From: Escherichia coli
Lineage (GTDB): Bacteria; Pseudomonadota; Gammaproteobacteria; Enterobacterales; Enterobacteriaceae
Reading direction: 5' to 3' (one strand)
Length of the DNA stretch: 64,000 bases
NCBI RefSeq assembly: GCF_965641715.1
Contig: NZ_OZ282453.1
The position numbers and the translations under genes were made by a program. The notes beneath the pieces were generated by a model that saw only the letters and a list, made by a program, of their open reading frames with translations, was not told where the DNA came from and made no database searches. Shown here piece by piece: positions 5,874 through 19,743 of the stretch; position 1 is the first letter of the stretch, and the number at the start of each line of letters is the position of its first letter.

Positions 5874-5905
5874 TAATAAATAACAACTAACAGGGAGTAA
5901 AGGCG

Positions 5906-7132
5906 ATGGGAATTAACGAAATCATCATGTACATCATGATGTTCTTTATGCTGATAGCTGCCGTAGACAGGATCCTGTCGCAGTTCGGCGGTTCTGCTCG
6001 TTTCCTCGGTAAGTTCGGTAAAAGTATCGAAGGATCAGGCGGTCAGTTCGAAGAAGGCTTTATGGCAATGGGCGCACTGGGCCTGGCGATGGTCGGTATG
6101 ACCGCGCTGGCACCGGTACTGGCTCACGTTCTCGGGCCGGTAATTATTCCGGTTTACGAAATGCTCGGCGCTAACCCATCGATGTTCGCCGGAACACTGC
6201 TGGCGTGCGATATGGGCGGCTTCTTCCTCGCCAAAGAGCTGGCGGGCGGCGACGTAGCCGCGTGGCTATACTCTGGGTTAATTCTCGGGTCGATGATGGG
6301 GCCAACGATTGTGTTTTCCATTCCGGTGGCGCTCGGCATTATCGAACCTTCTGACCGTCGTTATCTGGCGCTCGGCGTGCTGGCGGGCATTGTGACCATT
6401 CCGATTGGTTGTATCGCTGGTGGTCTGGTTGCTATGTACTCCGGTGTTCAGATCAACGGCCAGCCGGTGGAATTCACTTTCGCCCTGATCCTGATGAACA
6501 TGATCCCGGTGATCATTGTTGCGATTCTGGTGGCGCTGGGGCTGAAATTCATCCCAGAAAAAATGATCAACGGCTTCCAGATCTTCGCCAAATTCCTCGT
6601 TGCATTGATCACCCTCGGTCTTGCCGCTGCGGTAGTGAAATTCCTGCTTGGCTGGGAACTGATCCCCGGTCTGGATCCTATCTTTATGGCCCCTGGCGAT
6701 AAACCCGGTGAGGTGATGCGCGCCATTGAAGTTATCGGTTCTATCTCCTGCGTTCTGTTAGGGGCGTATCCGATGGTGCTGCTGCTGACCCGCTGGTTTG
6801 AAAAACCGCTGATGAGCGTCGGTAAAGTGCTGAATATGAACAACATCGCGGCAGCCGGCATGGTGGCAACGCTTGCCAACAACATCCCGATGTTCGGCAT
6901 GATGAAGCAGATGGATACCCGCGGCAAAGTCATCAACTGCGCCTTCGCCGTTTCCGCTGCTTTCGCCCTGGGCGACCACTTAGGCTTCGCCGCTGCCAAC
7001 ATGAATGCCATGATCTTCCCGATGATTGTCGGCAAGTTGATCGGCGGCGTAACGGCGATTGGCGTGGCGATGATGCTGGTGCCAAAAGACGACGCGACCG
7101 CGGCTAAAACCGAAGCGGAGGCACAATCGTGA
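5906..7132 (+). CDS. eutH: Ethanolamine permease EutH (408 aa)
   Basis: Polytopic membrane protein translation, expected length and position. Confidence 0.9.
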   Translation: MGINEIIMYIMMFFMLIAAVDRILSQFGGSARFLGKFGKSIEGSGGQFEEGFMAMGALGLAMVGMTALAPVLAHVLGPVIIPVYEMLGANPSMFAGTLLACDMGGFFLAKELAGGDVAAWLYSGLILGSMMGPTIVFSIPVALGIIEPSDRRYLALGVLAGIVTIPIGCIAGGLVAMYSGVQINGQPVEFTFALILMNMIPVIIVAILVALGLKFIPEKMINGFQIFAKFLVALITLGLAAAVVKFLLGWELIPGLDPIFMAPGDKPGEVMRAIEVIGSISCVLLGAYPMVLLLTRWFEKPLMSVGKVLNMNNIAAAGMVATLANNIPMFGMMKQMDTRGKVINCAFAVSAAFALGDHLGFAAANMNAMIFPMIVGKLIGGVTAIGVAMMLVPKDDATAAKTEAEAQS

Positions 7133-8532
7133 ACACTCGCCAGCTACTGAGCGTCGGTATCGATATCGGCACCACCACCACCCAGGTGATTTTCTCCCAC
7201 CTGGAACTGGTTAACCGTGCGGCGGTGTCGCAGGTGCCGCGCTACGAATTCATCAAACGCGAAATTAGCTGGCAAAGCCCGGTGTTCTTTACCCCTGTCG
7301 ATAAACAGGGTGGTTTAAAAGAAGCGGAACTGAAATCGCTGATTTTAGAGCAATATCAGGCTGCGGGCATTGCGCCGGAAAGCGTTGATTCTGGTGCCAT
7401 CATCATCACCGGTGAAAGCGCGAAAACCCGCAATGCTCGCCCGGCGGTGATGGCGCTCTCTCAGTCGCTGGGCGATTTTGTCGTCGCCAGCGCCGGGCCG
7501 CACCTCGAATCCGTGATCGCCGGTCACGGTGCCGGGGCGCAAACCCTTTCTGAACAACGGCTGTGTCGGGTACTGAATATCGACATCGGCGGTGGCACCG
7601 CGAACTACGCCCTGTTCGATGCCGGAAAAATCAGCGGCACTGCCTGCCTCAACGTCGGTGGTCGCCTGCTGGAAACCGACAGCCAGGGGCGCGTGGTTTA
7701 CGCTCATAAACCGGGGCAGATGATTGTGGATGAGTGCTTCGGCGCAGGCACCGATGCCCGTTCGCTGACCGGCGCGCAGCTGGTGCAGGTTACCCGGCGG
7801 ATGGCAGAGCTGATTGTCGAAGTGATTGACGGAACGCTTTCGCCGCTCGCGCAGGCATTAATGCAAACCGGTTTGCTGCCCGCAGGTGTTACGCCCGAAA
7901 TCATTACGCTTTCTGGCGGCGTGGGCGAATGTTATCGCCACCAGCCCGCCGACCCGTTCTGTTTTGCCGATATTGGCCCGCTTCTGGCAACGGCGCTGCA
8001 TGACCATCCGCGCCTGCGTGAGATGAACGTGCAGTTTCCGGCGCAAACCGTGCGCGCCACGGTGATTGGTGCGGGTGCACATACCCTTTCGCTCTCTGGC
8101 AGCACAATCTGGCTGGAGGGCGTACAACTGCCGCTGCGCAATTTGCCGGTGGCGATCCCAATTGATGAAACGGATCTGGTGGGTGCCTGGCAACAGGCGC
8201 TGATTCAGCTGGATCTTGATCCCAAAACTGACGCGTACGTGCTGGCGCTTCCCGCCTCGCTGCCTGTGCGTTACGCCGCGGTACTGACGGTCATCAACGC
8301 GTTGGTCGATTTCGTCGCGCGTTTTCCGAATCCGAATCCCCTGCTGGTGGTGGCCGGGCAGGACTTTGGTAAAGCTCTGGGCATGTTGTTGCGCCCACAG
8401 CTACAACAACTCCCGTTGGCAGTCATTGACGAAGTGATTGTCCGCGCGGGGGACTATATCGACATTGGTACGCCTCTTTTTGGCGGATCGGTTGTGCCGG
8501 TGACGGTGAAATCACTCGCATTTCCTTCCTGA
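7129..8532 (+). CDS. eutA: Ethanolamine ammonia-lyase reactivating factor EutA (467 aa)
   Basis: Translation recognised as EutA; 4-nt overlap with eutH stop. Confidence 0.9.
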   Translation: MNTRQLLSVGIDIGTTTTQVIFSHLELVNRAAVSQVPRYEFIKREISWQSPVFFTPVDKQGGLKEAELKSLILEQYQAAGIAPESVDSGAIIITGESAKTRNARPAVMALSQSLGDFVVASAGPHLESVIAGHGAGAQTLSEQRLCRVLNIDIGGGTANYALFDAGKISGTACLNVGGRLLETDSQGRVVYAHKPGQMIVDECFGAGTDARSLTGAQLVQVTRRMAELIVEVIDGTLSPLAQALMQTGLLPAGVTPEIITLSGGVGECYRHQPADPFCFADIGPLLATALHDHPRLREMNVQFPAQTVRATVIGAGAHTLSLSGSTIWLEGVQLPLRNLPVAIPIDETDLVGAWQQALIQLDLDPKTDAYVLALPASLPVRYAAVLTVINALVDFVARFPNPNPLLVVAGQDFGKALGMLLRPQLQQLPLAVIDEVIVRAGDYIDIGTPLFGGSVVPVTVKSLAFPS

Positions 8533-8627
8533 ATACTGTAGTTATCAGGCGTGGCGCTGGGTGGCTGGGTGTTAGTGGGATTATATCCGGCTGTGTATCC
8601 GGTCGGGGTGATTGGTCTGTATAGCAG

Positions 8628-8648
8628 AAAACCCGGCGCGGGGCCGGG
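8628..8648 (-). terminator. Intrinsic terminator-like hairpin (minus strand) downstream of the 217-aa island ORF
   Basis: aaaacccggcgcggggccggg: GC stem with T-run on minus strand; identical 21-mer recurs at 10317-10337. Confidence 0.45.
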
Positions 8649-8655
8649 TGAACTA

Positions 8656-9309
8656 TCACTCAGGGAACAAGTTGATTTGAAGCAAACTGCCAATGTATTT
8701 ACCAGTGCTTTTAATTTTTCGCTTTGATGGCTTACACGAATTCAGGTTGACACCAGCCTGGCTAGATATTGGCTTGTATTGCCGCTCCGCCAGTACGATC
8801 AGGTCTGCCGCGTCTTTTAGCTTTCCATCGTTAGCCAGTTCCAATGCTCGATCCGCCATTTGCCCGCATTGTTGAATCAGCTTAAGTTGCGATACCTCCA
8901 GTCGCAATTGCTGGATTCGTTCTACCACTTTCGCCCTAATGCGCTTAGTTTCACGCATTCCCATTCTTAATGCCTGGTTGCCAGTAAGTGAGTAAACCTC
9001 TTTTTCTTTCCTGAAGTTTGCGGCTTTACCGTCAGCTTGGACGCGCATTTTATGCGCTTCCAAGAATTCGCCCTCCAATTCATCCCTGATCTTCGCGTTG
9101 AATCTGTCGTTCTTGAGTTCATTTAACCCTTCCGCCTTGCGGATCTGGTTGATTAACTCCAACAATTCATCACTGCGGATACGCCACTCGCTATCAACCT
9201 GTACCAAGTCAAACATGTTGTTGCTCCCGTTTTGCTGCCATAGGGCAACGGCTCGCCAGCCTTTATCACCTCCTTTAGTTGTTGCGATTCTTAACTGAAT
9301 GGTTATCAA
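8656..9309 (-). CDS. Hypothetical island protein, charged/coiled-coil-rich (217 aa as ORF; likely start at internal ATG 9216, 186 aa)
   Basis: ORF translation; GGGAG-type RBS upstream of internal ATG at 9216; no domain recognised. Confidence 0.45.
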   Translation of the reverse strand: MITIQLRIATTKGGDKGWRAVALWQQNGSNNMFDLVQVDSEWRIRSDELLELINQIRKAEGLNELKNDRFNAKIRDELEGEFLEAHKMRVQADGKAANFRKEKEVYSLTGNQALRMGMRETKRIRAKVVERIQQLRLEVSQLKLIQQCGQMADRALELANDGKLKDAADLIVLAERQYKPISSQAGVNLNSCKPSKRKIKSTGKYIGSLLQINLFPE

Positions 9310-9380
9310 AACGCTGCGTTAATATCATTGATATGTATCAAATTTGTTTTGTGACGCGACAATGCCTTGTGAATATCAAT

Positions 9381-9404
9381 AAAAAACCCAGCGCTATGGC
9401 TGGG
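9381..9404 (-). terminator. Intrinsic terminator-like hairpin downstream of HTH-protein gene
   Basis: aaaaaa-CCCAGC-gctatg-GCTGGG on plus strand, i.e. hairpin followed by T6 on minus strand. Confidence 0.45.
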
Positions 9405-9437
9405 CTTCGTTTAATGAGATGGGATTGAAAGCGGGTT

Positions 9438-10220
9438 TTATTTATCTCCCAGATTGTATTCCCAGTTGGGAAGTAAAGTTATCAGCTTGTCACCTTTCTT
9501 GCCTTTGCCGATCTGGTTGCCGTTCTCGTCTTTCTTGTGTGTGATTTCCTGGTCAACCTTAATCAATCCTCTCTCTTTGGCTTGCTCAATCAGTCGGTAG
9601 AATGCGCCGTTACTAATCGGCTTCCGGTTACCGTCGTTATCCATCGCAGTGATTTTCTGTTGCAGTCCGGCGTTATTGCCCAGGTATTCGCCACCTAACG
9701 CCGCCAGTACCTGACACAACATGCCGACACTGTATTTTTTCGGATTTGGGTTAATCCATTCTTTAGCTCCCATCTCTTTTTTGTCGTTGGGCGCTTGTTC
9801 TGCTGCTACTGCGTTCACCTTTTCATCTCCCATCTTGTTACCGCTTGCTGTGCGCTTAATTTCTTCCAGTTCTCTCTCAAGCTCACCTATACGTAATTCA
9901 CGCTCGATAATTACCCCGCGCAGCACATCATCATCACCGTGAGGGCTTGCCTGAATCCAGTTACCATTGGCGAGCGGTAGGAGGGCATAAATTCCGAACA
10001 GGTCACAAAGCGCGGCAAGTGTATTAAAATCAGGTTCCCGGCGTCCCTCCATCCAGTGGCTAACAGCGCCTTTTGTGACTGGTTCGCCTTTCTTGCTTTT
10101 AACACCCATGCGATCCAGTGCGGCGGCTATCTCTTCGCATTTAATGCCACGACCGCCAGCATAGCCCGCCGCTTTCGCGGCCCCTTTGAGGATGTCGTGA
10201 ATTTTCATTTCGTAACTCAT
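9438..10220 (-). CDS. Putative HTH (XRE-like) DNA-binding protein with uncharacterised C-terminal domain (260 aa from second ATG)
   Basis: Helix-turn-helix-like segment ...EEIAAALDRMGVKSKKGEPVTKGAVSHWMEG...; GGGAGA RBS 8 nt upstream of ATG at 10220. Confidence 0.55.
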   Translation of the reverse strand: MSYEMKIHDILKGAAKAAGYAGGRGIKCEEIAAALDRMGVKSKKGEPVTKGAVSHWMEGRREPDFNTLAALCDLFGIYALLPLANGNWIQASPHGDDDVLRGVIIERELRIGELERELEEIKRTASGNKMGDEKVNAVAAEQAPNDKKEMGAKEWINPNPKKYSVGMLCQVLAALGGEYLGNNAGLQQKITAMDNDGNRKPISNGAFYRLIEQAKERGLIKVDQEITHKKDENGNQIGKGKKGDKLITLLPNWEYNLGDK

Positions 10221-10226
10221 AATTTT

Positions 10227-10257
10227 ATCTCCCATCTCATGAACTATGGTGGGAGAT
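10227..10257. promoter_or_regulatory. Inverted repeat ATCTCCCA-N15-TGGGAGAT overlapping RBS/start of the HTH gene (candidate operator)
   Basis: Arms at 10227-10234 and 10250-10257 seen directly in sequence; the left arm coincides with the RBS/first-codon sequence, so arm identity may be partly coding-driven; function inferred. Confidence 0.3.
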
Positions 10258-10316
10258 TAACACGGCGGGCCTGTGGCGGGTAAGTGTAACGGGAGAGAAT
10301 GTTGATTCAGGTCACA

Positions 10317-10337
10317 AAAACCCGGCGCGGGGCCGGG
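10317..10337 (-). terminator. Intrinsic terminator-like hairpin downstream of the 158-aa island ORF (copy 2 of 21-mer)
   Basis: Identical to 8628-8648. Confidence 0.45.
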
Positions 10338-10359
10338 CTGTGTTAGTACGTCGTTGCTC

Positions 10360-10836
10360 TTAGTTCATGAGGAGATCTTTAAATTCGACGCCGTATTCAT
10401 GGGCAATGTCGCCTCTATAGTAGATGTTATCTTTCAGGATATATCCGACGTTTCTCAGGACGTGAGAACACTCTCTTACTGCTGCCTCTTTACCCCTTAA
10501 AACATCCTCCCCGCTAACTTCTTCGCCGCTGTACTTCACTGCGATGTTGTCTGCTGCACGCTCTGCTGCTTCCAGGCAATTAATCTTCACTTTTCCCCGA
10601 TTCTCCCAGGCAAAATCGCGGCCATAAATCCCCATTGCATCAACCATCTTTTGCGCAGTAGTGCGCTCATCCACCCATTCAGTGCGTTCGAACTTCTCGC
10701 CAGCAGCTACCCTTGCCGCCAGTTGTTCGTGTTGAGTCTGTACGGCCGCAGCCTCTTCTTCCCATTTGCCTTGCTCGTTGTATACGATGAAGCCAGTGAT
10801 GACTGCAGCGATTAGTAACTTGTCCAGAAAATTCAT
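10360..10836 (-). CDS. Hypothetical membrane-anchored protein (158 aa, N-terminal hydrophobic helix)
   Basis: ORF translation MNFLDKLLIAAVITGFIVY...; strong AGGAGGA RBS upstream of ATG. Confidence 0.5.
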   Translation of the reverse strand: MNFLDKLLIAAVITGFIVYNEQGKWEEEAAAVQTQHEQLAARVAAGEKFERTEWVDERTTAQKMVDAMGIYGRDFAWENRGKVKINCLEAAERAADNIAVKYSGEEVSGEDVLRGKEAAVRECSHVLRNVGYILKDNIYYRGDIAHEYGVEFKDLLMN

Positions 10837-11089
10837 AGCTTCCTCCTATCTGTTCAATTACCCGGCATCTCTTGCCGTTGAACGTATTAAACAAAATGCC
10901 AGTCAGGGATAAAGCGATCTGCGTCATAAAGTCCATCCCCCATCTCATTGATATTGATGGGAGATTGTTTAATTGGTCAGAAATTAAGCGTTTATGTGCG
11001 CTGCCGGGTATCCACCTCCTATCTGAAGATGGAAAGATGGGTGATATAATGTGATGGCAATTGGTGGATTGCGTGGTTTTTACAATGAT

Positions 11090-11120
11090 AAGGGGCTGGC
11101 GTAATGCTGGCCCCTTTGTT
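11090..11120 (+). terminator. Plus-strand-specific hairpin plus T-run (candidate terminator of a short plus-strand transcript)
   Basis: aggggctggc-gtaat-gctggcccc-tttgttt; stem needs G-U wobble pairs so folds only as plus-strand RNA. Confidence 0.3.
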
Positions 11121-11356
11121 TATCCGGTATCCGGTATCCGGTATAAGCGGGCGTGTATCCGGTAGCGGGGATATGGGCGCGTGTACGTGAAATCTGGCAA
11201 ATTAGCAGGGTAATTGTGAGGGAATTTTTGCGTAGGAGCGTTTGTGGCTGGTAGCTCAAAATTGAGCTTTGCTTTTCATTCAATGACTTAGGTTAATTCT
11301 AGCAAAACGCTAGGATTGAATGTCCGCCAGTCTGCTTCCCCTAGCGTGGGATTTGG

Positions 11357-13723
11357 TCAACGTCTGCGCGGCTGCAAAATTCCTCCGGGTCGTTGTGATT
11401 CACGCTGCATCAGTCGCATCGCTGTGTTTTCTATGGTCTGCTGCAGCGCTTTTGAGTCTTCCTCTGTCCAGCCGTTGTTAGCCTGGATGTTGAACGTATT
11501 GTTCATCGTGATTCCGCCACCGCCTACCAGATCGCGGCCCGGTGTAACTCGTCCACCTTCACCCGGGATCATGTACTGTTTCCCGCCAGTGGATGTAAAT
11601 AGCTCCGGTACTCCGTGCTCCCCGACCCTATAAAGATTGCCACCGTTAACAGCCCCGCCGTTGTAACGAGCGCCAGCCAGTCCAAGCGTTTTGGCGGCAG
11701 CTACGCCAGTAGTAAGCCCGGTAAGTCCAGTGGCCCCAGCGCCGCCCATCGTGGCTACGTTAGCCAGGTATGCAGGAGTGGCCCACGCCGATCCTAATGC
11801 TGTAGCCTCTGCTAGTGCTTTAGCTGTTGCGGCTGCGTTTGCGGCTTCACCAATTAGCTGCTGTTTAACCCACTCAGCACCCATCTGGACAATGCCACCG
11901 ACCACAGAAGACAGGATCGTACTGCCAACGTTGGCAAGTGACTCTTGCAGCGATTGAGTACCGTTTATCAGTCCGGTAAATGCGCTGCCAGCGCCAGACG
12001 ATAACCCATCGACCATATTCCCGATGAGGCCATTTATATCGCTTTGTTTCTTCCACTGCTGCCACTGGAGATCCAGAACCCTTTGTTCATGTGCGATCTC
12101 TTCCTGGCGCAACTGCTCTTCGGTAGCCCCAAGATCTAGAAGCATTTGCTTGCGAACAGCCCATTCATTTTGGATCTTCTGTATTGGGTCAATCTGAGCT
12201 TTCTGCTTATCCTGCTCACTGACAAGACTGTCCCATTTCGCTTTCTGCTTGCGGATGGCTTCAGCTTCATCAATTGCTGCGAGTGTACTTGCTCGCTGTT
12301 TCGCGCTGATCAACCGTTTCTGCTCAGCCGCTTCCAGGTCTTCTACTGCTTTTTTCCGTTTATTGAGCGCCGCTAGTTCGGGATCGTATTTTTCCACCAA
12401 TGAAAGGCCGCTTGCTTCCTTACGTTCGCGTTCTCTTTGTGCCTGTTTGGCTGCCTGCTTAGCGGCGTTTTCTGCTTGTTTGGCTGCTCTTTCTTTCGCC
12501 CTGGTGTTCTCTTCTTCCTTGCGCTTATTCTCTTCTAACTCCTTGTTTTGTTCGCGTAATTTAACGATTTCCTCATGATGCGCCTTTGTCAGCTGGCCTT
12601 CTTTCAGTGCCCGATCTATATCAGCGTTTGCGTTGCCTTTTAGCTGTTCCTGTTTAACTTGCAGATGTTTAATCATCATTTCGCCAGTGGCAATCGCTGC
12701 CGCAGACGCTCCAGCATTCAGAGCTTCATTTAACGCTCTCTGACGTTCTTCTGCTGTTAATGCCTCGTTGCTGTATCGAAGTAGCGCATCAACGTATTTC
12801 TCCAGTTCTGCGCGGCCTGCCGCAGTTGCTGGTTCCATTGCTTTTAGGATGCTCAGAAGGCTTTGCGCTTCATAGGAAGACGGGTTTTTGCGGAACTGCG
12901 CCATAGCGTTATAAAGCGCCATAGCTTCACCCTCTGTGATTCTGTACTTAGCTCCCAGCCCTTCAATGACCGCTGATAACTGTTTGCCAAGCGCTGCACC
13001 GAATGCGCCTTCCTTGCTTAATTTGTTGAGCACTTCACTCAGTGAATTTCCTGACACGCCCAGCGCGTCGAGTTCTCTTGCTACCGTTCCCAGGTCGCCG
13101 CCTTTCATCCATCCTGCATTAGAAAATTCAGTGATAGCCCGGCCCGCTTCCCGCGTTTCTTCCTGGAGTGTTTTTAGCGCCCGCACGGCCTGCTCTTTCA
13201 TTACGGCGGCGGCAATGGCGTTGTTCTGTGTGGCTTCGTAATATGAATCACTGAAAGCGTTAACGCCCTGGGTGGATTTGCCGATCACGGCGTCGATTGA
13301 TGCTAATGCCTCCTTCATCCTTTCAGCGCTATCCGTTGCGTCGTCCATGCTGTCCGTTAGGCTGTTGGCAATCGCCCCGCCAATAGCCATCACCGCCCCC
13401 ATGACCGCACCGCCAGTACCGAAGGCAGCGGCAAGTTGTGCACCCTGCACAGCGAACGCCTGGAGCGCATTACCGCCCATCTGCAATTGAGTGGCAAGGT
13501 CTGCGATCTGGTATGATGCGTTACGGATTGCCGGGGAAAGGTTGGTTTTGACTGCGGCAGACGTTTTGGTCATCTGCGTGTTCAGTTTTTTGACGCCACT
13601 GTCAGCGCGTTTTGCGCCGCGTTCTATACTGTCAAAAGCCTGGTCCGCTTCTTGTTGTGCTGCCAGGAGTTTACCAGTACGGGCGTCGACCTCATAGTAT
13701 ATGGTCCCAAGATTCCCACTCAT
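11357..13723 (-). CDS. Phage tail tape-measure-like protein (788 aa)
   Basis: Long Ala/Gly/Gln-rich coiled-coil protein; C-terminal motif ...GGNLYRVGEHGVPELFTSTGGKQYMIPG... resembles the conserved C-terminal block of siphovirus tape-measure proteins. Confidence 0.6.
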   Translation of the reverse strand: MSGNLGTIYYEVDARTGKLLAAQQEADQAFDSIERGAKRADSGVKKLNTQMTKTSAAVKTNLSPAIRNASYQIADLATQLQMGGNALQAFAVQGAQLAAAFGTGGAVMGAVMAIGGAIANSLTDSMDDATDSAERMKEALASIDAVIGKSTQGVNAFSDSYYEATQNNAIAAAVMKEQAVRALKTLQEETREAGRAITEFSNAGWMKGGDLGTVARELDALGVSGNSLSEVLNKLSKEGAFGAALGKQLSAVIEGLGAKYRITEGEAMALYNAMAQFRKNPSSYEAQSLLSILKAMEPATAAGRAELEKYVDALLRYSNEALTAEERQRALNEALNAGASAAAIATGEMMIKHLQVKQEQLKGNANADIDRALKEGQLTKAHHEEIVKLREQNKELEENKRKEEENTRAKERAAKQAENAAKQAAKQAQRERERKEASGLSLVEKYDPELAALNKRKKAVEDLEAAEQKRLISAKQRASTLAAIDEAEAIRKQKAKWDSLVSEQDKQKAQIDPIQKIQNEWAVRKQMLLDLGATEEQLRQEEIAHEQRVLDLQWQQWKKQSDINGLIGNMVDGLSSGAGSAFTGLINGTQSLQESLANVGSTILSSVVGGIVQMGAEWVKQQLIGEAANAAATAKALAEATALGSAWATPAYLANVATMGGAGATGLTGLTTGVAAAKTLGLAGARYNGGAVNGGNLYRVGEHGVPELFTSTGGKQYMIPGEGGRVTPGRDLVGGGGITMNNTFNIQANNGWTEEDSKALQQTIENTAMRLMQRESQRPGGILQPRRR

Positions 13724-14012
13724 AATATCTTTATCCGCGTTGTGCGGACACCTCCGATTATTCTTTACTCTAATAATTTCACAATGAAACAGTTTATTGC
13801 CGCTTCAGTGGCTTCGTGTTCCGGTTTGCTTCGATCAATCACAAAAAATACAGCTTAATAGAATCAATGGCTTATAAAGTTGTATTAGCTATGTTTCTTC
13901 GTCCGTGCCACTGAAAACCCAGTTTTTCCAATGGAATCAATACTGATATGTATCCATACTGTTTTTCACATAATGTACGTTATGCGCACTACGGGAAACG
14001 TACTGAATTTAT

Positions 14013-14243
14013 TTACTGGTCGCCGTTCAGTTCATGCAGAGTCTGTTCTGGCAATGAATCCAGCCAGTTTTCTGCATCCTCCCTGTAACACTCCAGGATG
14101 CAACGGTTTGTGAAGTTGATGAAAGCGGTCAGTGATTCTGCTTCGTCGTTCCTGTGCGTTCTCCTGGCGTGCTTGCGTAGTCGTTTCGCGTCTGCCAGTT
14201 GGTCATTGAGTATCTTCAGTCTGTCGGCAATATCATCGTTCAT
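14013..14243 (-). CDS. Hypothetical small island protein (76 aa)
   Basis: ORF with GAGGGAGAG RBS upstream of ATG. Confidence 0.4.
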   Translation of the reverse strand: MNDDIADRLKILNDQLADAKRLRKHARRTHRNDEAESLTAFINFTNRCILECYREDAENWLDSLPEQTLHELNGDQ

Positions 14244-14378
14244 GTCGTCTCTCCCTCGCGCGCGCGTCGTACTTGTCCGAAAATTACCCCCATAAAAGCG
14301 CCCCTCATATAGTGCAAAATCCCGGCTGACGCGGATCTCAGTGGGTTTTAGCAGTGAAAACTGACATCAAAAACGGCT

Positions 14379-14426
14379 CGCTAAGGTCCGCTAAGTATCC
14401 GCTATCGTTCGCTAACCCCCCGCTAA
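14379..14426. repeat. Five direct CGCTAA/CGCTAT hexamers phased at 10-11 bp (candidate protein-binding array)
   Basis: Copies at 14379, 14389, 14400, 14410, 14421; one helical turn apart; intergenic. Confidence 0.5.
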
Positions 14427-14430
14427 CCTA

Positions 14431-14796
14431 TTAGATATCGCATCCAACGCTATTGAGCTGGCTATGTATATCGGCGCGAATTAACTTCAGGCGTTTACAA
14501 AATTCGCGTTCTTCCGAATTAAGCTCGCGGCCACCTTGTTTCGAGGCAATGAGCTTGTTGATGGTGGAAAGCGAATATTCACTCCATATACGAAGCATTT
14601 GTCGCTTCATTGGTTGCTCGCTCAATGGTGAGTTTTTCAGGTCTGACACGCGCTCTGCGACGGTTCTTGCGATGCCTTGTACCACTCGTAGTGCCAACAT
14701 GATGATTTTCTCCGGACTTGTGCTAATATAGTTCCCGAACATTGTTTCGAGACTGCTTATCCTGTTTGTCTTGTCCGATTTGTTCATTGGTCGCAT
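14431..14796 (-). CDS. Hypothetical island protein (121 aa)
   Basis: ORF only; weak RBS, so lower confidence. Confidence 0.35.
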   Translation of the reverse strand: MRPMNKSDKTNRISSLETMFGNYISTSPEKIIMLALRVVQGIARTVAERVSDLKNSPLSEQPMKRQMLRIWSEYSLSTINKLIASKQGGRELNSEEREFCKRLKLIRADIHSQLNSVGCDI

Positions 14797-14838
14797 TGTT
14801 AAGTCAGCCGGGGTAATTCCCGGCTTTCTTTTATCCGA

Positions 14839-15381
14839 TCAGTACCGAATCCCTATCGCATTGAATACGCGTTTCCGTTGCTCAGCTTCAGGATCGGCGG
14901 CCATTTCTGGTTCTGGCTCCGGCATAGACGGGGCGGCATCAAAATGCTCAATTTCACGACCGAAATACGAGTTCAGGTCAATACCTGCCGAACTATCCAC
15001 TCCATCAAAATAGCGACGCTGTTCCTCGGTGAGACAGCTACCCAGACGTTCCTCAACCTGCGCCATAAACTCAGCATCCGGTGAGAAGTACTCATCCGGA
15101 GTCGGAGCACCGCTCTGTTTGTGCATCTCCATTTTCTCTGCGTTCGTTTTCAGCCCGGCAATGCGTTTCTCCAGTCCGGCGGCTTTAATAGCGTCAGCAA
15201 CGATTTGTGGGATCTGCGGTTTAATTATTTCGATAACTTCATTGCTGATTAATTTAAACTGGGCCATACGGATCGCTTTAATCTGCTTATTTAACAGTGC
15301 GCGTTCCCCTTCGTTGGCGGTTTTATCACGCTGTGCTACCAGTTCATCGCCTTTGTTTGTCAGTACATCAAATGCGTCCAT
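14839..15381 (-). CDS. Hypothetical island protein (180 aa, acidic C-terminus)
   Basis: ORF with strong GGAGGAGG RBS. Confidence 0.5.
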   Translation of the reverse strand: MDAFDVLTNKGDELVAQRDKTANEGERALLNKQIKAIRMAQFKLISNEVIEIIKPQIPQIVADAIKAAGLEKRIAGLKTNAEKMEMHKQSGAPTPDEYFSPDAEFMAQVEERLGSCLTEEQRRYFDGVDSSAGIDLNSYFGREIEHFDAAPSMPEPEPEMAADPEAEQRKRVFNAIGIRY

Positions 15382-15398
15382 TGTCTTTCCTCCTCCGA

Positions 15399-15725
15399 TT
15401 ATTTAAAAGTGCTTATTGACACGCCGAAACGACGACTTAATTCAAAAAGGAGTCGCGCCTTTGCAGTGCCTTCCATGTCTTCCGGCATTTCAGACTGAAG
15501 TTTATCAGCTACTTCATCAACAAGTGGCCGAACCGTTTCCACGAACTTGTCCGCAATATAATCAGCAGAACGCATCACTTTTTCCTGGAATTCCTCACGG
15601 CGTACCTGGGCGGCTGATTTAGGGGCTGTCGTGCGCTGAAAATAACTGTCTAATGAATGCATGGCATCTGCTCCTTTTACTTTGATTGCTGTTATTTCTT
15701 TAATTGTGTTTGCTTTGATTTTCAT
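15399..15725 (-). CDS. Hypothetical island protein (108 aa)
   Basis: ORF with AAGGA RBS; tightly packed after upstream gene. Confidence 0.5.
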   Translation of the reverse strand: MKIKANTIKEITAIKVKGADAMHSLDSYFQRTTAPKSAAQVRREEFQEKVMRSADYIADKFVETVRPLVDEVADKLQSEMPEDMEGTAKARLLFELSRRFGVSISTFK

Positions 15726-15801
15726 GCTGCCTATTCCTTCAGAAATTGCGGTAGTTTGCTTTTTAAATCAATAAGTTATTTGATAATCTCAGTAGCTGTT
15801 T

Positions 15802-15993
15802 TCATTGGTGGCGAGCGCCTTTGTTTTTATAGAATTCCAAAATCTCAGATCGGATAAACTTAATTCTTGAGCCAATCGGACTGACCGGGACGGGCCAGCC
15901 TTTAATCTTGTTCATCCACCGGAATATTGTCCGACGGGTAACGCCGAATAAAGCTGCTACCTCGTTAACCGTCATTAATTCGCTATCATTCAT
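15802..15993 (-). CDS. AlpA/excisionase-family small HTH regulator (63 aa)
   Basis: Translation ...MTVNEVAALFGVTRRTIFRWMNK... matches AlpA-type prophage regulators; typical partner of P4-type integrases. Confidence 0.6.
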   Translation of the reverse strand: MNDSELMTVNEVAALFGVTRRTIFRWMNKIKGWPVPVSPIGSRIKFIRSEILEFYKNKGARHQ

Positions 15994-16280
15994 GTTCTCA
16001 CCTCAAAAAGTAGCGGTGAGGAAAATATGGAGAAAACCCTCACCGCGCCCTGAATGAAATTAAAGACCAACATTACTGTTGATACTTATTATTATATTCC
16101 TCCTGTCCCTGTTTCACATCTTTTACCATATAGTGAAAGGGGATATTCTGTAATGTTTACAAAACTTTTAATTAGCAAAAAATAATTGCGCATCTCACGT
16201 AATGCAGGGATAATATTACTCAAGGGCTGGTTGCCCTTACTCAAAATGTGATCTATAACTACAACGATCTATTTCACTTC

Positions 16281-16307
16281 CCCGCTTTCTCCGGCGGGAT
16301 TTTTTTG
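16281..16307 (+). terminator. Plus-strand intrinsic terminator-like hairpin within 600-bp noncoding stretch
   Basis: cccgc-tttctccg-gcggg followed by a ttttttt. Confidence 0.4.
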
Positions 16308-17122
16308 CCTGCAATCTGGCACCATTGCGCACATTAAAATTAGATGCCATTTAAAAGCGATATAACGCGTTCTGCCGGGCTTAATTTTGGCTATCCACTT
16401 GGAAGGGTAAGCCTGTTTTGATTCGTCTGGCGTGGAATGGTGCGGCGGTAATATCAGATCTCAGCGTTCTGCGTGGTGGGATGAAATAGCCTGGCAGGAT
16501 TTGCGTGTGGTTTGCTCTCCCAAAAAATGGGGTAATGGCGCTGGCTGGATGGCAGGACTCCGCGCTGATTACTGGATGGCTGAAAATTTAATGAAATCGC
16601 ATCAATTTTAATGCGTCTAAATCGCTCTGTGGCGACGTGAAGTTTTCAGGTAAGCAAGTGTAGCTGTGTGGTGTGTTCATCGCGTTACTGGCACCATTCC
16701 GTTCGAATTTGGCGCTATCAGGATGGTTTGCGGTGGTCGGCGGCGGGGATAAACTTGCTTGAGTGGTCACCTCAGCCTGCTGTGCGTCGTGTGATGGTAC
16801 TGTCTGCACCTGGCTATACGCTGCTTTGCTGCTGTTTCCTGTCTGGTCTGTATACGCGATAAAACCCATCGGCTTTACAGTGAGTGAGTTTTTTGCGCTT
16901 TGCTTTCCATTCGGTTTGCTTACTGCTGCTGTGTGTCTGTGCGGTAGCTCAGAAAGCTGTCGATGATAACCATCACTGCCAGACCGTCTTTTGAGCTGGC
17001 GATTGCTCGAAGTCTTCCGAAGGTCCGCTGGGCTTGTTGCTTGTTTGTGTTCTTTTAAAATGCGCGCCTCTTACTTTCTCTTAAAAAGAAAAAAGGAATA
17101 TACAGATCTCATACTATGTGTG

Positions 17123-17273
17123 TCCCAAATGTCACACGTCATGGCCTGACCTGTATCCCAAATGTCACACGTCACCCTCTGACCTGTATCCCAAATGTCA
17201 CACGTACCTGTGTCCCAAATGTCACACGTCTATTGTTAATTAATTGTTGACCTGTGTCTCAAATGTCACACGT
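17123..17273. repeat. Iteron array: five direct copies of TCCCAAATGTCACACGT (fifth TCTCAAATGTCACACGT)
   Basis: Copies start 17123, 17156, 17189, 17213, 17257; AT-rich block tattgttaattaattgttga between copies 4 and 5. Confidence 0.65.
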
Positions 17274-17338
17274 CTGTTGATGGTTTAAGTAATAAAAAGG
17301 GCCACCATTTTAGGTGACCCATTGATGCGTTTTAGTCG

Positions 17339-18103
17339 TTATCTTGCGTTCTCGACCTGAAAAAGCATTCTGTATTTTCTTGCGTGCTGACCAATAACAT
17401 ATTCCCCGTATGGCTCAATGAGTCCTAACTCAACCAGGATTTTCATCTGGCGAATTACGGTGCGGCGATTCATGCCCCATTCATCAGCTATTTTTGCCTG
17501 GCAAACTTCAGATACATAAGATCCATCATTCTGCTTTCTTGCTGCTGATGCAATGCTGGATAATACGCTCCAGGCTGTAGCTTTAGCTTTATTCTCGCAA
17601 CCACTTCTGACAAATGCCTTACGTGCCGCACCCAAACAGACATAACTGCAATAAATTCCTTTTTCTTCCGTTTGGTATTGTGTCTCTTTATCCTGCATGG
17701 CTTCCGGTTCTTCCGGCGCTTCCTGCTGTGGTGCTGTCTGCGAAGTTTTAGCGGCCATACTGCGTAGCTCGTTCACGATATCAGTAGCTGATTTCTTCTC
17801 GCTTTTAGTTTCCTGCGTGACTGATAAATACTCACCTTGTAACGCCAGGAAGTCAGCGCGGGCGTTTGCCTGGCTTTGTTCTGGTGATTCAGGTTCTGCA
17901 TCGGCAGGTGATGAAATCGGTGATACACGCGCCCAGCCTGTTTTGGCGTTGCATTCCCAGCGATAACCATTAAAGCGGATATCATTCAGGCCATCATCAA
18001 TGGCGCTCCGTACTTCTTCCGGGATCGCGTCGATTTTCTGAAGGCTGTGTTTACCGAGTGATTCGCCTTGCCGTGGGGCGTAGGCGGTTGGTAAAATATT
18101 CAT
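17339..18103 (-). CDS. Putative winged-HTH DNA-binding protein, candidate replication initiator or regulator (254 aa)
   Basis: C-terminal HTH-like segment ...GMNRRTVIRQMKILVELGLIE...; perfect AAGGAGA RBS; iterons immediately 3' of gene. Confidence 0.5.
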   Translation of the reverse strand: MNILPTAYAPRQGESLGKHSLQKIDAIPEEVRSAIDDGLNDIRFNGYRWECNAKTGWARVSPISSPADAEPESPEQSQANARADFLALQGEYLSVTQETKSEKKSATDIVNELRSMAAKTSQTAPQQEAPEEPEAMQDKETQYQTEEKGIYCSYVCLGAARKAFVRSGCENKAKATAWSVLSSIASAARKQNDGSYVSEVCQAKIADEWGMNRRTVIRQMKILVELGLIEPYGEYVIGQHARKYRMLFQVENAR

Positions 18104-18349
18104 GTGGGATTTCTCCTTTTTACTTGTTTCCCATATCGCCCGGATTGGTTAGCGGCCTTCCGGGCTTTTTGTTGCGTTGATCCTATTTTCGATCCCCGGA
18201 TTTTTTATTACAAACTTGGCTTAATCATTGATTTTATTGGTATAGCTGTATAAAAGGATAACAGGATAAAAGGGTGATAGATTGTGTAACCTGTTAACCT
18301 TTTATACCAGTAAGGCGAAAGAAAAGCCGGACGAATCCGGCCTTATAGT

Positions 18350-19555
18350 TCACGGCTCCAGCGGATTACCGCCACCAGCCAATATCTGGTCGATGGCGTC
18401 GCTGTAGTCCTGCATCATGGCCCGCCGTTGCTTCAGATAGGCCGCCTGGTTATAAACGCCGCGCACACCTTTCGGAACGTGGGCCAGTTGGATTTCGATC
18501 CAGTCTGGTGAGTATCTGCCGTACTCGTTAAGTGCGGTTGAAAAGGTGGTTCGCCAGCCGTGACCAGTGGCTATCGACTTGTATCCGATACGCTCCAGGG
18601 CTTTAAGGATGGCACTGGCTGAAAGTGGCTTATCCATGAATCGACCAGGGAACACAAAAGCACTGTATCCGCTGCGGGTAAACTGGTCCTGTAATAGCTC
18701 GACCGCCTGCCGGGATAGCGGGACCACATGCGGGCGGCGGGCCTTCATGACTTCAGCGGGTAGGGTGATGGTTGCCGATTCCAGATCTACCCACTCCCAG
18801 CGCATTAAACGCAGTTCTGCGGTCCTTAGGGCGCTTAATATAAGCAAACGTATTGCCGTCTGAATCTGAACGCTCCCGGCTCTCTCAAGGGCTTTGTAGA
18901 AGGCCGGGATTTCGTTAATTTGTATCCATGCGTTATGGCCTGGGCGTCGGGCTTTCAATGCCGTGTCCAGATCTGCAACCGGATTTCGGTTAACCAGTTC
19001 AGTGATAACGGCAAATTTGAAGATTTCCCCTATACGCTGCCGTAATTTTCGGGCCTGTTCCGGCGCGGTGCGCTCTTTCTTCTGAAGCAATGCCAGCACG
19101 TCACGGGCCGTTATATCGACAATCGACCGCTTGCCAAGTACCGGATAAACATCTTTCTCCAGTGCCGATCTAACTTGTTTCGTGTAAGACTCAGACCAAC
19201 CGCTCACTCTGGTAGCAAACCAGTCTTCCGCTACCGTCTTAAAACTTGCCGCCATGTTGAGCGCATCAATGGCTTTCTCCTTGCGCGCTTCTTCCATTGG
19301 GTCAATTCCCTGGGCGATGAGTAAACGGCTCTCTGTGGCGCGTTTACGTGCTTCCTTCAAGGTAATCAGCGGATATACCCCAATAGCCTGTAACCGCTCT
19401 TTCTTGTCTATCCAGTACCGGAATCGCCAGTATTTGCTGCCATTGGGATGTACCAGCAAGAACAGGCCAGGTGTCTGTGAATCGGTGAGTTTGTAGGGCT
19501 TGTCCTTCGGCTGGGCGGCCTCTATGCCCTTTGCTGTCAGTGGTGTCTTGCTCAA
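18350..19555 (-). CDS. Tyrosine-type site-specific integrase, P4-like family (401 aa, TTG start)
   Basis: Translation ...GLFLLVHPNGSKYWRFRYWIDKKERLQAIGVYP... typical N-terminal arm-binding region of P4-type integrases; located at island edge. Confidence 0.85.
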   Translation of the reverse strand: MSKTPLTAKGIEAAQPKDKPYKLTDSQTPGLFLLVHPNGSKYWRFRYWIDKKERLQAIGVYPLITLKEARKRATESRLLIAQGIDPMEEARKEKAIDALNMAASFKTVAEDWFATRVSGWSESYTKQVRSALEKDVYPVLGKRSIVDITARDVLALLQKKERTAPEQARKLRQRIGEIFKFAVITELVNRNPVADLDTALKARRPGHNAWIQINEIPAFYKALERAGSVQIQTAIRLLILSALRTAELRLMRWEWVDLESATITLPAEVMKARRPHVVPLSRQAVELLQDQFTRSGYSAFVFPGRFMDKPLSASAILKALERIGYKSIATGHGWRTTFSTALNEYGRYSPDWIEIQLAHVPKGVRGVYNQAAYLKQRRAMMQDYSDAIDQILAGGGNPLEP

Positions 19556-19743
19556 AACCGGATACCTCGATCTAACGACTCGATAACCCCGCTCATGTAT
19601 CCGTCGCGTTCGGTTGCGTTCGGCAGGATAAGTAACGGGCGTATTAAGTGGAACACCTTACAGGACAAGGGATAACGATGAAATAGAATTGTTCGAATGC
19701 TGTGAAAAATGTTACTCATCACTTCTTCCTGAGGGAACGACTT

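What the first reader, a model, noticed from the sequence alone, without database searches (positions are those of the whole stretch)
11042..11170. Plus-strand-specific hairpin terminator, extended -10 element and TATCCGG tandem repeats in the gap after the tape-measure gene
Seen: TGaTATAAT (extended -10-like) at 11042-11050; a hairpin at 11090-11120 whose stem needs G-U pairs, so it only folds in the plus-strand RNA, followed by a T-run; then three tandem copies of TATCCGG (11121-11141). A GTGTATCCGGT motif at 11153-11163 recurs at the left island edge (8593-8603). Inference: a short plus-strand transcript of about 65 nt, and/or a recombination scar marking an internal module boundary (8533-11170 as a separately acquired segment).
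Basis: seen in the sequence. Interest (0 to 1): 0.35.

Follow-up and report, generated by a model that had tools for sequence, protein, structure and literature searches.

The report
Small promoter-terminator unit at island boundary
The gap after the tape-measure-like gene holds a conserved promoter-plus-terminator unit, probably making an unannotated 50-70-nt RNA (also present in E. coli K-12), followed by extra copies of the integrase-binding motif found at the island's ends; this is a useful annotation, not a new kind of system.

Summary
All sequence features are present at the stated coordinates. The window is an E. coli chromosome. The feature lies in a CPZ-55/intZ-type island (8533-19732) inserted between eutA and eutB.

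In 20 island variants and three related small plasmids, one unit recurs. It has a -10 hexamer (TATAAT, TATAGT or TAAAAT), then 21-41 nt containing GGGGATTGTGAG, then a GC-rich hairpin, then TTTGTTT. At least five unrelated upstream sequences join it at the -10. The stem exists in three sequence types. All 12 chromosomal alleles pair fully only on the plus strand, through G-U pairs: 99% versus 77% of pair cells.

E. coli K-12 has the unit between yffQ and yffP, unannotated and with no Rfam match. No strand-specific transcript evidence was found.

TATCCGG is probably the IntZ arm-type site. It is conserved at both island ends, and the integrase has an arm-binding domain. The internal cluster is an optional copy of the left-end arm. 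It has 0-4 motif copies across variants and sits in a slot that holds a serine recombinase gene in the plasmid relatives.

Variant breakpoints map at 11051, 11121 and 11176. The left region is a mosaic of cassettes, not one acquired segment. The function of the RNA is unknown. Modest interest.

The parts
11042..11050 (+). Extended -10 promoter element TGaTATAAT (hexamer 11045-11050). The predicted transcription start is near 11056-11057.
   Evidence: Read. A -10-like hexamer that keeps A at position 2 and T at position 6 (TATAAT, TATAGT or TAAAAT) is present at this position in 20 of 23 related loci, behind at least five unrelated upstream sequences. The -35 region is weak (CTGAAG).
11051..11089 (+). 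5' part of the predicted small RNA. It is the long form, containing GGTGGATTGCGTGG, a diverged copy of the family motif GGGGATTGTGAG. It is predicted to form a small 5' stem-loop (GCAAUU/GAUUGC).
   Evidence: Alignment A1. Fold. The same long form occurs in plasmids pRHB29-C22_2 and pRHB34-C15_2. The 5' stem is predicted for the window and pRHB29-C22_2.
11090..11121 (+). Intrinsic terminator. The hairpin is 11090-11116 (11 pairs, two G-U pairs, 5-nt loop), followed by the T-run TTTGTTT at 11115-11121.
   Evidence: There are 12 chromosomal alleles in two stem types, all stronger on the plus strand: -19 to -26.8 versus -5.3 to -16.2 kcal/mol. Pair counts are 99.2% on the plus strand versus 77% on the minus strand. 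A third stem type occurs in plasmid pRHB29-C22_2.
11121..11175 (+). Optional block of putative IntZ arm-type motifs. TATCCGG x3 in tandem at 11121-11141, a fourth copy at 11156-11162, and a 28-nt tandem duplication spanning 11127-11185. It is a diverged copy of the left-end arm sequence at 8582-8612.
   Evidence: The block has 0, 1, 2, 3 or 4 motif copies in different variants. Homology with block-less variants resumes at 11176.
11176..11254 (.). Conserved backbone block GGCGCGTGTACGTGAAATCTGGCAAATTAGCAGGGTAATTGTGAGGGAATTTTTGCGTAGGAGCG. It is shared by nearly all island variants and by the plasmid relatives. Function unknown.
10876..11041 (.). Type-A regulatory spacer upstream of the first cargo gene, homologous to the K-12 yffQ upstream region. 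It contains the inverted repeat 10935-10966 and a degenerate copy of the K-12 CRP site (about 10909-10930). The 52-codon plus-strand ORF 10896-11054 is not conserved as a coding sequence.
8584..8602 (+). Left-end (attL) pair of TATCCGG motifs, starting 52 and 64 nt after the end of the core CTTCCTGA (8524-8531).
   Evidence: Nearly invariant in 17 variants while flanking bases vary.
19558..19604 (.). Right-end (attR) motifs: an inverted CCGGATA abutting the integrase start codon (19558-19564) and a direct GTATCCG at 19596-19602. The core CTTCCTGA is at 19725-19732.
   Evidence: The integrase (18350-19555, minus strand) has Pfam Arm-DNA-bind_3 at E = 1.5e-24.

Best explanation
**Shown: context.** The window is an E. 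coli chromosome. The finding lies in a CPZ-55/intZ-type island inserted between eutA and eutB, and every island gene is on the minus strand.

**Shown: the unit.** At 11042-11121 sits a compact unit conserved across the island family: a -10 element, a 21-41-nt 5' segment containing GGGGATTGTGAG (diverged in the window), a GC-rich hairpin and a T-run. It marks the border between the variable cargo cassettes on the left and the conserved backbone on the right.

**Inferred: the transcript.** Sigma-70 RNA polymerase starts near 11056 and stops at the hairpin. This would give a non-coding plus-strand RNA of about 65 nt in the window and about 52 nt in K-12.

**Inferred, weaker: its role.** The RNA and its terminator probably act in cis as a boundary. 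The RNA is antisense to any minus-strand read-through from the tape-measure operon into the cargo. In the plasmid relatives it converges on the 3' end of a serine recombinase gene. The hairpin also stops plus-strand transcription from running antisense into the backbone genes.

**The TATCCGG repeats are a separate matter.** The motif is most likely the arm-type binding site of the IntZ integrase. The internal cluster is a dispensable duplicate of the left-end arm. It grew by a 28-nt tandem duplication and 7-nt slippage, in a slot after the terminator where different variants carry nothing, a recombinase gene or its remnant.
For: **Island context**
- eutA, eutB and intZ flank the island in the closest E. 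coli matches, which are 98.8% identical over this region.
- The 8-bp core CTTCCTGA is duplicated at both ends.

**Unit conservation**
- The full unit was located in 17 of 20 chromosomal loci and all 3 plasmid relatives.
- At least five unrelated upstream sequences join at the -10 hexamer, which always keeps A at position 2 and T at position 6.

**Strand of the hairpin**
- 12 chromosomal alleles in two stem types were compared; plasmid pRHB29-C22_2 adds a third stem type.
- Plus-strand RNA folds at -19 to -26.8 kcal/mol and minus-strand RNA at -5.3 to -16.2 kcal/mol.
- On 9 alleles of one stem type, 99.2% of pair cells are standard pairs on the plus strand, and all six variable pairs change only to another standard pair.
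- On the reverse complement only 77% of cells pair, and every variable position becomes a mismatch.

**Not coding**
- The overlapping plus-strand ORF has in-frame stops in 4 of 6 homologues.

**Polymerase binding**
- A sigma-70 holoenzyme peak was reported in the K-12 yffP-yffQ spacer (PMC3946193).

**Arm sites**
- TATCCGG is conserved at fixed positions at attL in 17 variants and at attR in 3 variants.
- It is enriched in the window: 17 copies against 5.07 expected.
- It is not clustered in the int-less plasmid relatives.
- The integrase has the Arm-DNA-bind_3 domain.

**Slot after the terminator**
- Breakpoints fall at 11051, 11121 and 11176.
- A recombinase gene occupies the slot in the plasmids, with its stop codon 4-12 nt from the T-run.
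Against: - **No transcript evidence.** Searches of held supplementary tables for yffP, yffQ or the K-12 coordinates found nothing: Term-seq 3' ends, Cappable-seq starts, a global/differential RNA-seq transcription map, RNAtag-seq transcript termini, RIL-seq sRNA predictions and p19-captured dsRNA. Some of these files were truncated when stored (stated for one), and three further papers had no files held or were not held at all.
- **Not annotated.** NC_000913.3 annotates nothing between yffP and yffQ.
- **Weak promoter features.** The -35 is weak, and the TG of the extended -10 occurs only in upstream type A.
- **Chance level.** One TGNTATAAT in 64 kb is what chance predicts.
- **Not essential.** NCTC9967 has lost the hairpin. 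PSJ-23, TOK-001 and LR-28 lack the -10 and 5' part.
- **No target.** No significant trans target was found in the cargo leaders, so the proposed role is inference only.
- **No double compensatory changes.** None occur within a stem type; all support comes from one-sided G-C to G-U changes.
- **Internal cluster does not fit an arm site.** It lies 2.6 kb from the core, too far to act as a normal arm site, and no core-like sequence lies beside it.
Confidence: 0.55

Rival explanations
1. **Moron-style junction read on the minus strand.** The hairpin ends the upstream minus-strand operon (tape-measure or recombinase gene). The same DNA then serves as the promoter of the cargo genes, with -35 TTCTCA or CTCACA lying in the complement of TTGTGAGAA and -10 TATATC, TATAAC or CATTAT. 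No plus-strand RNA matters.
For: - Shimada et al. assigned the K-12 sigma-70 peak to CTCACA-16-TATCAC pointing toward yffQ (PMC3946193).
- All annotated genes are on the minus strand.
- In the plasmids the hairpin sits 4-12 nt after the recombinase stop codon.
- A-runs precede the hairpin, so the minus-strand RNA would carry a short U-run.
Against: - That assignment followed the orientation of the flanking genes rather than strand-specific data, as far as the table shows.
- The minus-strand hexamers lack the key final T (TATAAC, TATATC), or lack a usable -35 at 16-18 nt (CATTAT).
- The candidate -35 is not kept in the window.
- The minus-strand hairpin is weakened by every substitution, down to -5.3 kcal/mol in E47.
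- A CRP site and a TTTAAT -10 nearer to yffQ already give a plausible cargo promoter.
Confidence: 0.2
2. **Insulator only.** The hairpin is a plus-strand terminator that stops read-through from the host eut operon, or from stray plus-strand promoters in the cargo, before it runs antisense into the backbone genes. The -10 upstream is incidental.
For: - The eut operon is transcribed on the plus strand into the island.
- In the pattern scan this hairpin has the longest stem of the plus-strand terminator-like sites in the island.
- Its plus-strand specificity is well supported.
Against: - The same hairpin, in the same orientation relative to the unit, is kept in free plasmids that have no eut context.
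- The -10 hexamer and the GGGGATTGTGAG segment are conserved together with it across unrelated upstream sequences. An incidental promoter would not explain that.
Confidence: 0.12
3. **Antitoxin-like small RNA.** The unit is the small RNA partner of a type I toxin-antitoxin-like pair. It would control the conserved 20-codon hydrophobic peptide gene that opens the cargo operon in K-12-type islands.
For: - A conserved ORF MKRWEVALLVMVMLVCCIEL with a good ribosome-binding site lies upstream of yffQ and is divergent from the unit. Similar peptides occur in GD33 and RM10042.
- The size and layout resemble tisB/istR-1 and shoB/ohsC (from my own knowledge of those systems).
Against: - No significant complementarity exists between the RNA 5' part and the cargo leader in 7 variants. 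The best z-score is -2.2, in one variant, at a non-conserved site.
- The peptide gene is absent from the window, although the unit is present.
Confidence: 0.05
4. **DNA-level signal.** The hairpin is read as single-stranded or cruciform DNA and acts as a recombination, replication or packaging site that drives cassette exchange. The TATCCGG cluster would be part of a secondary attachment site.
For: - Breakpoints cluster at both edges of the hairpin.
- TOK-001 looks like a deletion between a cargo terminator hairpin and this hairpin at a GGCC microhomology.
- G-T pairs are also tolerated in folded DNA.
Against: - The T-run directly after the stem is conserved, and it has no role in such sites.
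- No core-like CTTCCTGA lies near the internal cluster.
- No integron-type integrase or HUH nuclease was seen among the island ORFs.
- Breakpoints at GC-rich hairpins are expected from ordinary microhomology.
Confidence: 0.05
5. **Terminator of a small protein gene.** The hairpin ends a plus-strand gene at 10896-11054 (52 codons), whose last codons happen to read TGATATAATG.
For: - The ORF is open in both the window and K-12, with the same length up to GDIM.
Against: - It has in-frame stops, some with a 1-nt length change, in OW1E2, FDAARGOS_1284, NCTC9967 and RM10042.
- In window versus K-12, the one pair with no length difference up to the shared GDIM end, amino-acid identity was 35% and differences were spread over all three codon positions (26, 22, 29); other pairs are affected by a 1-nt indel.
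- It has no Pfam or PHROG match.
- There is no ribosome-binding site before the ATG.
Confidence: 0.02

Closest known systems
Lambda OOP RNA, a 77-nt antisense RNA with its own promoter and intrinsic terminator (from established knowledge)
   Same: It is a short transcript made from a constitutive promoter and ended by its own terminator. It runs against the direction of all neighbouring genes of a mobile element. In the plasmid relatives it converges on the 3' end of a gene.
   Different: OOP overlaps the 3' end of the cII coding sequence and acts through RNase III. Here the RNA ends 4-12 nt before the recombinase stop codon. In the window it faces only an intergenic region. There is no sequence similarity and no expression data.
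Arm-type integrase binding sites of lambda-type and P4-type tyrosine recombinases (P1, P2, P'1-3 of lambda attP; from established knowledge)
   Same: A short motif, distinct from the core, is repeated on both sides of the attachment site 50-175 bp from the crossover. The integrase carries an N-terminal arm-binding domain.
   Different: Binding is untested. The cluster in the finding lies 2.6 kb from the core with no core beside it, so it is a copy of an arm rather than a working arm.
Morons and variable cargo hotspots of prophages and satellites (gene cassettes with their own promoter and terminator between conserved backbone genes; from established knowledge)
   Same: Different gene sets sit between conserved sequences. 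Each cargo gene has its own terminator. Breakpoints fall at the conserved linkers.
   Different: The border element here is a self-contained promoter-terminator pair pointing away from the cargo. That is not part of the usual moron description.
Divergent antitoxin small RNAs of type I toxin-antitoxin pairs (IstR-1, OhsC, OrzO; from established knowledge)
   Same: It is a predicted RNA of about 50-75 nt from a constitutive promoter. In K-12-type islands it is divergent from an operon that opens with a tiny hydrophobic peptide.
   Different: No complementarity to the leader was found. The peptide is absent from the window.

Membership tests
Intrinsic (Rho-independent) terminator | GC-rich stem-loop of about 7-15 pairs with a short loop | tested here: met
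   11 pairs, 7 of them G-C, with a 5-nt loop. The fold is -19.4 kcal/mol, z = -3.9.
Intrinsic (Rho-independent) terminator | U-rich tract directly after the stem, on the strand where the stem is strongest | tested here: met
   TTTGTTT at 11115-11121. It is conserved as TTTGTTT(T) or TTTATTTTT in 17 chromosomal loci; among the plasmid relatives pRes13 has a weaker TTTGTGG. The plus strand is favoured in all 12 chromosomal alleles.
Intrinsic (Rho-independent) terminator | Structure maintained in evolution | tested here: met
   Three different stem sequences occupy the same position. 99.2% of pair cells are standard pairs on the plus strand versus 77% on the minus strand. Changes within a stem type are one-sided only.
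Intrinsic (Rho-independent) terminator | RNA 3' ends at the U-tract in vivo or in vitro | not testable with these tools
   No hit for this locus in the held Term-seq tables. The files may be incomplete.
Sigma-70 promoter of the extended -10 type | TGnTATAAT, or at least a -10 hexamer with A at position 2 and T at position 6 | tested here: met
   TGATATAAT at 11042-11050. The hexamer is conserved as TATAAT, TATAGT or TAAAAT in 20 of 23 loci. The TG occurs only in upstream type A.
Sigma-70 promoter of the extended -10 type | RNA polymerase binding and a mapped start site on this strand | tested here: inconclusive
   An in vitro sigma-70 holoenzyme peak lies in the K-12 yffP-yffQ spacer, with the strand not resolved (PMC3946193). 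No start site was found in the held tables.
Described small RNA families (Rfam 15) | Match to a curated covariance model at its gathering score | tested here: not met
   No family matched at gathering score in the window. Only chance-level hits (E > 1) were found in 10800-11400.
Arm-type integrase binding sites | Motif distinct from the core, repeated in both arms of the attachment site, conserved among elements with the same integrase | tested here: met
   There are two direct copies starting 52 and 64 nt after the core at attL in 17 variants. At attR there is an inverted copy and a direct copy in 3 variants. No such clusters occur in the int-less plasmid relatives.
Arm-type integrase binding sites | Integrase with an N-terminal arm-binding domain | tested here: met
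   PF13356 Arm-DNA-bind_3, E = 1.5e-24, residues 6-93 of the 401-aa integrase.
Arm-type integrase binding sites | Site lies within the attachment region next to a core | tested here: not met
   This applies to the internal cluster 11121-11162 only. It is 2.6 kb from the left core and has no CTTCCTGA-like sequence nearby.
Arm-type integrase binding sites | Binding by the integrase | not testable with these tools
   Needs a gel-shift or footprinting experiment.
Type I toxin-antitoxin small RNA | Base-pairing region between the small RNA and the toxin mRNA leader | tested here: not met
   RNAduplex of the 5' part against 420 nt of leader in 7 variants gave z from +0.3 to -2.2, with no conserved site.
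Type I toxin-antitoxin small RNA | Adjacent small hydrophobic toxin gene | tested here: not met
   A 20-codon ORF is present in K-12, GD33 and RM10042 but is absent from the window.

The most novel reading that the evidence does not exclude
The unit encodes a functional small RNA that has not been described. It would be specific to the CPZ-55 family of integrative elements and their plasmid relatives, and present in E. coli K-12 between yffP and yffQ. It would control the border between backbone and cargo, for example by antisense pairing with read-through transcripts or with the 3' end of the recombinase mRNA. In some islands the internal TATCCGG cluster would additionally recruit or titrate IntZ beside it.
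Probability: 0.3. Interest if true: 0.45.

Novelty: new member of a known kind. Interest (0 to 1): 0.3.

Why it matters
- **A candidate small RNA in K-12.** If the RNA is real, E. coli K-12 carries an unannotated small RNA gene in the cryptic prophage CPZ-55. A Northern blot could check it directly.
- **Better annotation of the island family.** The comparison gives the family a defined attachment core, probable arm sites, a cargo region built from shuffled cassettes, and free plasmid relatives.
- **No change to any general principle.** Promoter-terminator units, arm sites and mosaic cargo regions are all familiar.

Tried and rejected
- **Plus-strand ORF 10896-11054 as a gene ended by the hairpin.** Rejected. 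It has in-frame stops in 4 of 6 homologues, differences spread over all codon positions, and no family match.
- **Known RNA family.** None at gathering score, and only chance hits at E up to 10.
- **Relatives outside E. coli.**
  - A pattern scan for the backbone block in 100,044 species genomes gave only chance hits in unrelated metagenome-assembled genomes.
  - One viral-contig hit (L005) was not examined.
  - The phage collection had no match.
- **Transcript evidence in K-12.**
  - Seven papers' supplementary files were searched without a hit, or with only spurious hits in decimal numbers.
  - Three further papers had no files held, or were not held at all.
- **Trans target of the RNA in the cargo leader.** Not significant. 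A whole-island scan timed out and was dropped.
- **Direct repeat of TTGTGAG between the RNA 5' part and the backbone block, as paired sites.** It is only a 7-nt core, is not kept in the window or in pRHB34-C15_2, and was not pursued.
- **Base composition as a boundary marker.** There is no clear GC shift at 11,100.
- **Minus-strand promoter using the same DNA.** Kept as a rival but judged weaker, as explained under rivals.
Full report
**1. Where the finding sits.**
The window is an E. coli chromosome. It carries the valU-valX-valY-lysV and alaX-alaW type tRNA clusters and the eut operon.

Between eutA (7129-8532, +) and eutB (from 19702, +) lies an 11.2-kb island. The best matches in 5,426 complete E. 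coli genomes (for example ATCC 8739, 98.8% identity) annotate an intZ integrase next to eutB. This is the site of the cryptic prophage CPZ-55 in K-12.

The 8-bp core CTTCCTGA is present at both ends, at 8524-8531 and 19725-19732. All island genes are on the minus strand:

| Coordinates | Product or best match |
|---|---|
| 8656-9309 | anti-repressor-like, 217 aa |
| 9438-10235 | helix-turn-helix protein, 265 aa |
| 10360-10836 | 158 aa, no family match |
| 11357-13723 | tape-measure-like, 788 aa (PHROG 1538, E = 8e-112) |
| 15802-15993 | AlpA-like ORF, 63 aa |
| 17339-18103 | Rep/HTH-like protein |
| 18350-19555 | P4-type integrase with Arm-DNA-bind_3 |

The finding lies in the 520-nt gap between the tape-measure-like gene and the 158-aa gene.

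**2.
Every feature is at the stated coordinates.

- The hairpin (11090-11116) has 11 pairs including two G-U pairs. It folds at -19.4 kcal/mol as plus-strand RNA and at -14.9 kcal/mol, with an internal loop, on the other strand.
- In the pattern scan of the island it has the longest stem of the terminator-like sites found.
- TGNTATAAT occurs once in the window, which is what chance predicts.
- TATCCGG is enriched: 17 copies against 5.07 +/- 2.39 expected. The three tandem copies and a 28-nt tandem duplication are picked up by TRF.

**3. Comparison with related islands.**
About 300 of 5,426 E. coli genomes have the region; 213 of them match the K-12 sequence at 99% or more, and those listed are mostly K-12 laboratory derivatives. 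I fetched 20 chromosomal loci and three related small plasmids.

One unit recurs:
- a -10 hexamer (TATAAT in most, TATAGT in two, TAAAAT in two plasmids);
- 21-41 nt containing GGGGATTGTGAG (GGTGGATTGCGTGG in the window);
- a hairpin flanked by AAAGG...CCTTT;
- TTTGTTT.

At least five unrelated upstream sequences join the unit at the hexamer. The window and two plasmids carry a long form with 12-13 extra bases; in the window and pRHB29-C22_2 these are predicted to pair with GAUUG to form a 5' stem-loop.

K-12 has the short form between yffQ and yffP:
TGATATAAT-gtcagcggggattgtgagaaa-GGCCCGGGTAGGTTGCTAACTGCCTGGGCC-TTTATTTTT.

**4. Which strand.**
The stem occurs in three sequence types. The 12 chromosomal alleles belong to two of them, and plasmid pRHB29-C22_2 carries the third. 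The plus-strand RNA folds at -19 to -26.8 kcal/mol and the minus-strand RNA at -5.3 to -16.2 kcal/mol.

On nine alleles of one type, 99.2% of pair cells are standard pairs on the plus strand. All six variable pairs change only to another standard pair, for example G-C to G-U or U-G to U-A. On the reverse complement only 77% of cells pair, and every variable position is a mismatch.

There are no double compensatory changes within a type. The support is therefore the consistent direction of one-sided changes, plus the replacement of the whole stem by other stems at the same place.

The T-run is on the plus strand. A minus-strand promoter that would use the same DNA has hexamers lacking the final T or lacking a -35 at a usable distance, and it is not kept in the window.

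**5. Not a protein gene.**
The plus-strand ORF 10896-11054, whose last codons contain the TGATATAAT, has in-frame stops in four of six homologues, and its differences are spread over all codon positions.

**6. Expression evidence.**
NC_000913.3 annotates nothing between yffP and yffQ, and Rfam has no match.

Shimada et al. found a sigma-70 holoenzyme binding peak in this spacer in vitro and assigned it, apparently from the orientation of the flanking genes, to a CTCACA-16-TATCAC promoter toward yffQ. That sequence is the opposite strand of the same DNA (PMC3946193). A CRP site lies 120 nt to the left in K-12 (PMC12871828).

Searches of held supplementary tables of transcriptome papers for this locus found nothing. 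This is weak evidence against an abundant RNA in laboratory cultures, because some of these files were truncated when stored.

**7. The TATCCGG repeats.**
The motif is nearly invariant at attL in 17 variants, with two direct copies starting 52 and 64 nt after the core, while neighbouring bases vary. At attR, three variants have an inverted copy abutting the integrase start codon and a direct copy 40 nt further on. The int-less plasmid relatives have no such clusters. Together with the arm-binding domain of the integrase, this makes TATCCGG the probable arm-type site.

The internal block (11121-11175) is a 77% copy of the attL arm. Its motif copy number varies among variants:

| TATCCGG copies | Variants |
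|---|---|
| 0 | K-12 and most others |
| 1 | RM10042 |
| 2 | FDAARGOS_1284, PSJ-23; TOK-001 (plus a degenerate TGTCCGG) |
| 4 | window, ATCC 8739 |

This pattern fits a 28-nt duplication followed by 7-nt slippage. No core-like sequence lies beside the block, so it is not a second attachment site.

**8. The slot after the terminator, and the boundary.**
Homology breakpoints among variants fall at 11050-11052, 11121, 11128-11153 and 11176.

Between the T-run and the backbone block, different variants carry different things:
- K-12 has nothing.
- The window has the TATCCGG block.
- GD33 has a remnant of about 150 nt, and 20AR0300 an insert of about 160 nt.
- The three plasmids have a complete serine recombinase gene whose stop codon lies 4-12 nt from the T-run.

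To the left, the cargo region is itself a mosaic, with further breakpoints near 8650, 9230-9264, 9416, 9835, 10340 and 10876. Each cargo gene ends in the same family of minus-strand terminators.

**9. What it most likely does.**
- **Shown:** a conserved promoter-like hexamer and a plus-strand terminator form one unit at the cargo-backbone border.
- **Inferred:** it makes a non-coding RNA of about 65 nt here and about 52 nt in K-12.
- **Inferred, weaker:** it works in cis as a border. It is antisense to minus-strand read-through and convergent on the recombinase gene where that gene is present. It also blocks plus-strand transcription into the backbone.

A role as a type I antitoxin RNA for the 20-codon hydrophobic ORF upstream of yffQ was tested. 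It found no support: there is no complementarity, and the ORF is absent from the window.

**10. Verdict.**
The element is a new, unannotated member of known kinds: a small promoter-terminator RNA unit, plus arm-type site copies at a mosaic boundary. Interest is modest.

Noticed in passing
window 17119-17285: Five iterons of 24-33 nt (TGTRTCCCAAATGTCACACGT) lie just downstream of the 254-aa Rep/HTH-like gene (17339-18103, minus strand). They look like a replication origin or operator array. They share TGTATCC with the arm motif.
   Followed up: no
window 8628-8648, 9383-9403, 10317-10337: Each of the three cargo genes ends in the same minus-strand terminator family (CCCGGCCCCGCGCCGGGTTTT); two copies are 21/21 identical. 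The linkers around them are shared by islands that carry different cargo genes. This suggests cassette shuffling by recombination at the linkers.
   Followed up: partly
window 10935-10966 and 10227-10258; also 9413-9431 and 9769-9779: The inverted repeat CCCATCTCA...GATGGGAG recurs upstream of cargo genes, and its arms are conserved in K-12 with a different loop. It is a candidate operator or leader hairpin.
   Followed up: no
L026 (NC_000913.3) 2,563,518-2,563,580, plus strand; L011 about 5908-5970: An unannotated 20-codon hydrophobic ORF, MKRWEVALLVMVMLVCCIEL, with a strong ribosome-binding site lies upstream of yffQ in K-12. Similar peptides occur in GD33 and RM10042. It is absent from the window.
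   Followed up: partly
L027 (CP057337.1), L028 (CP057168.1), L029 (NZ_CP062859.1): Three small E. coli plasmids of 8-9.6 kb (two recorded as circular, the 8,009-bp record as linear) share the island backbone (HTH, HNH endonuclease in one of them, yffL-P-like genes, the unit and the backbone block). They have a serine recombinase and lack both the IntZ integrase and the tape-measure-like gene. The family therefore exists in both integrated and free forms.
   Followed up: partly
L011 (K-12 CPZ-55) 5886-6359 versus window 11176-13723: K-12 CPZ-55 lacks the tape-measure-like gene. The backbone block is joined almost directly to yffP, so the K-12 island is a deletion derivative of the form in the window.
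   Followed up: partly
plasmid NZ_KY751926.1, 90889-91049: A Klebsiella pneumoniae plasmid record holds a 100% identical copy of the K-12 yffP-yffQ spacer. This may be captured or mis-assembled E. coli K-12 DNA.
   Followed up: no
window 11255-11315: An insert of about 60 nt is not shared with most variants. At its left edge is a small palindrome AGCTCAAAATTGAGCT (11253-11268) followed by a T-rich run on the plus strand. It lies between the backbone block and the end of the tape-measure-like gene.
   Followed up: no
L003 5560-5960; L020 and L022 equivalents: Cargo-less island variants carry an AT-rich segment of about 440 bp after attL, with a low-complexity lysine/glutamate-rich ORF annotated as hypothetical.
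   Followed up: no
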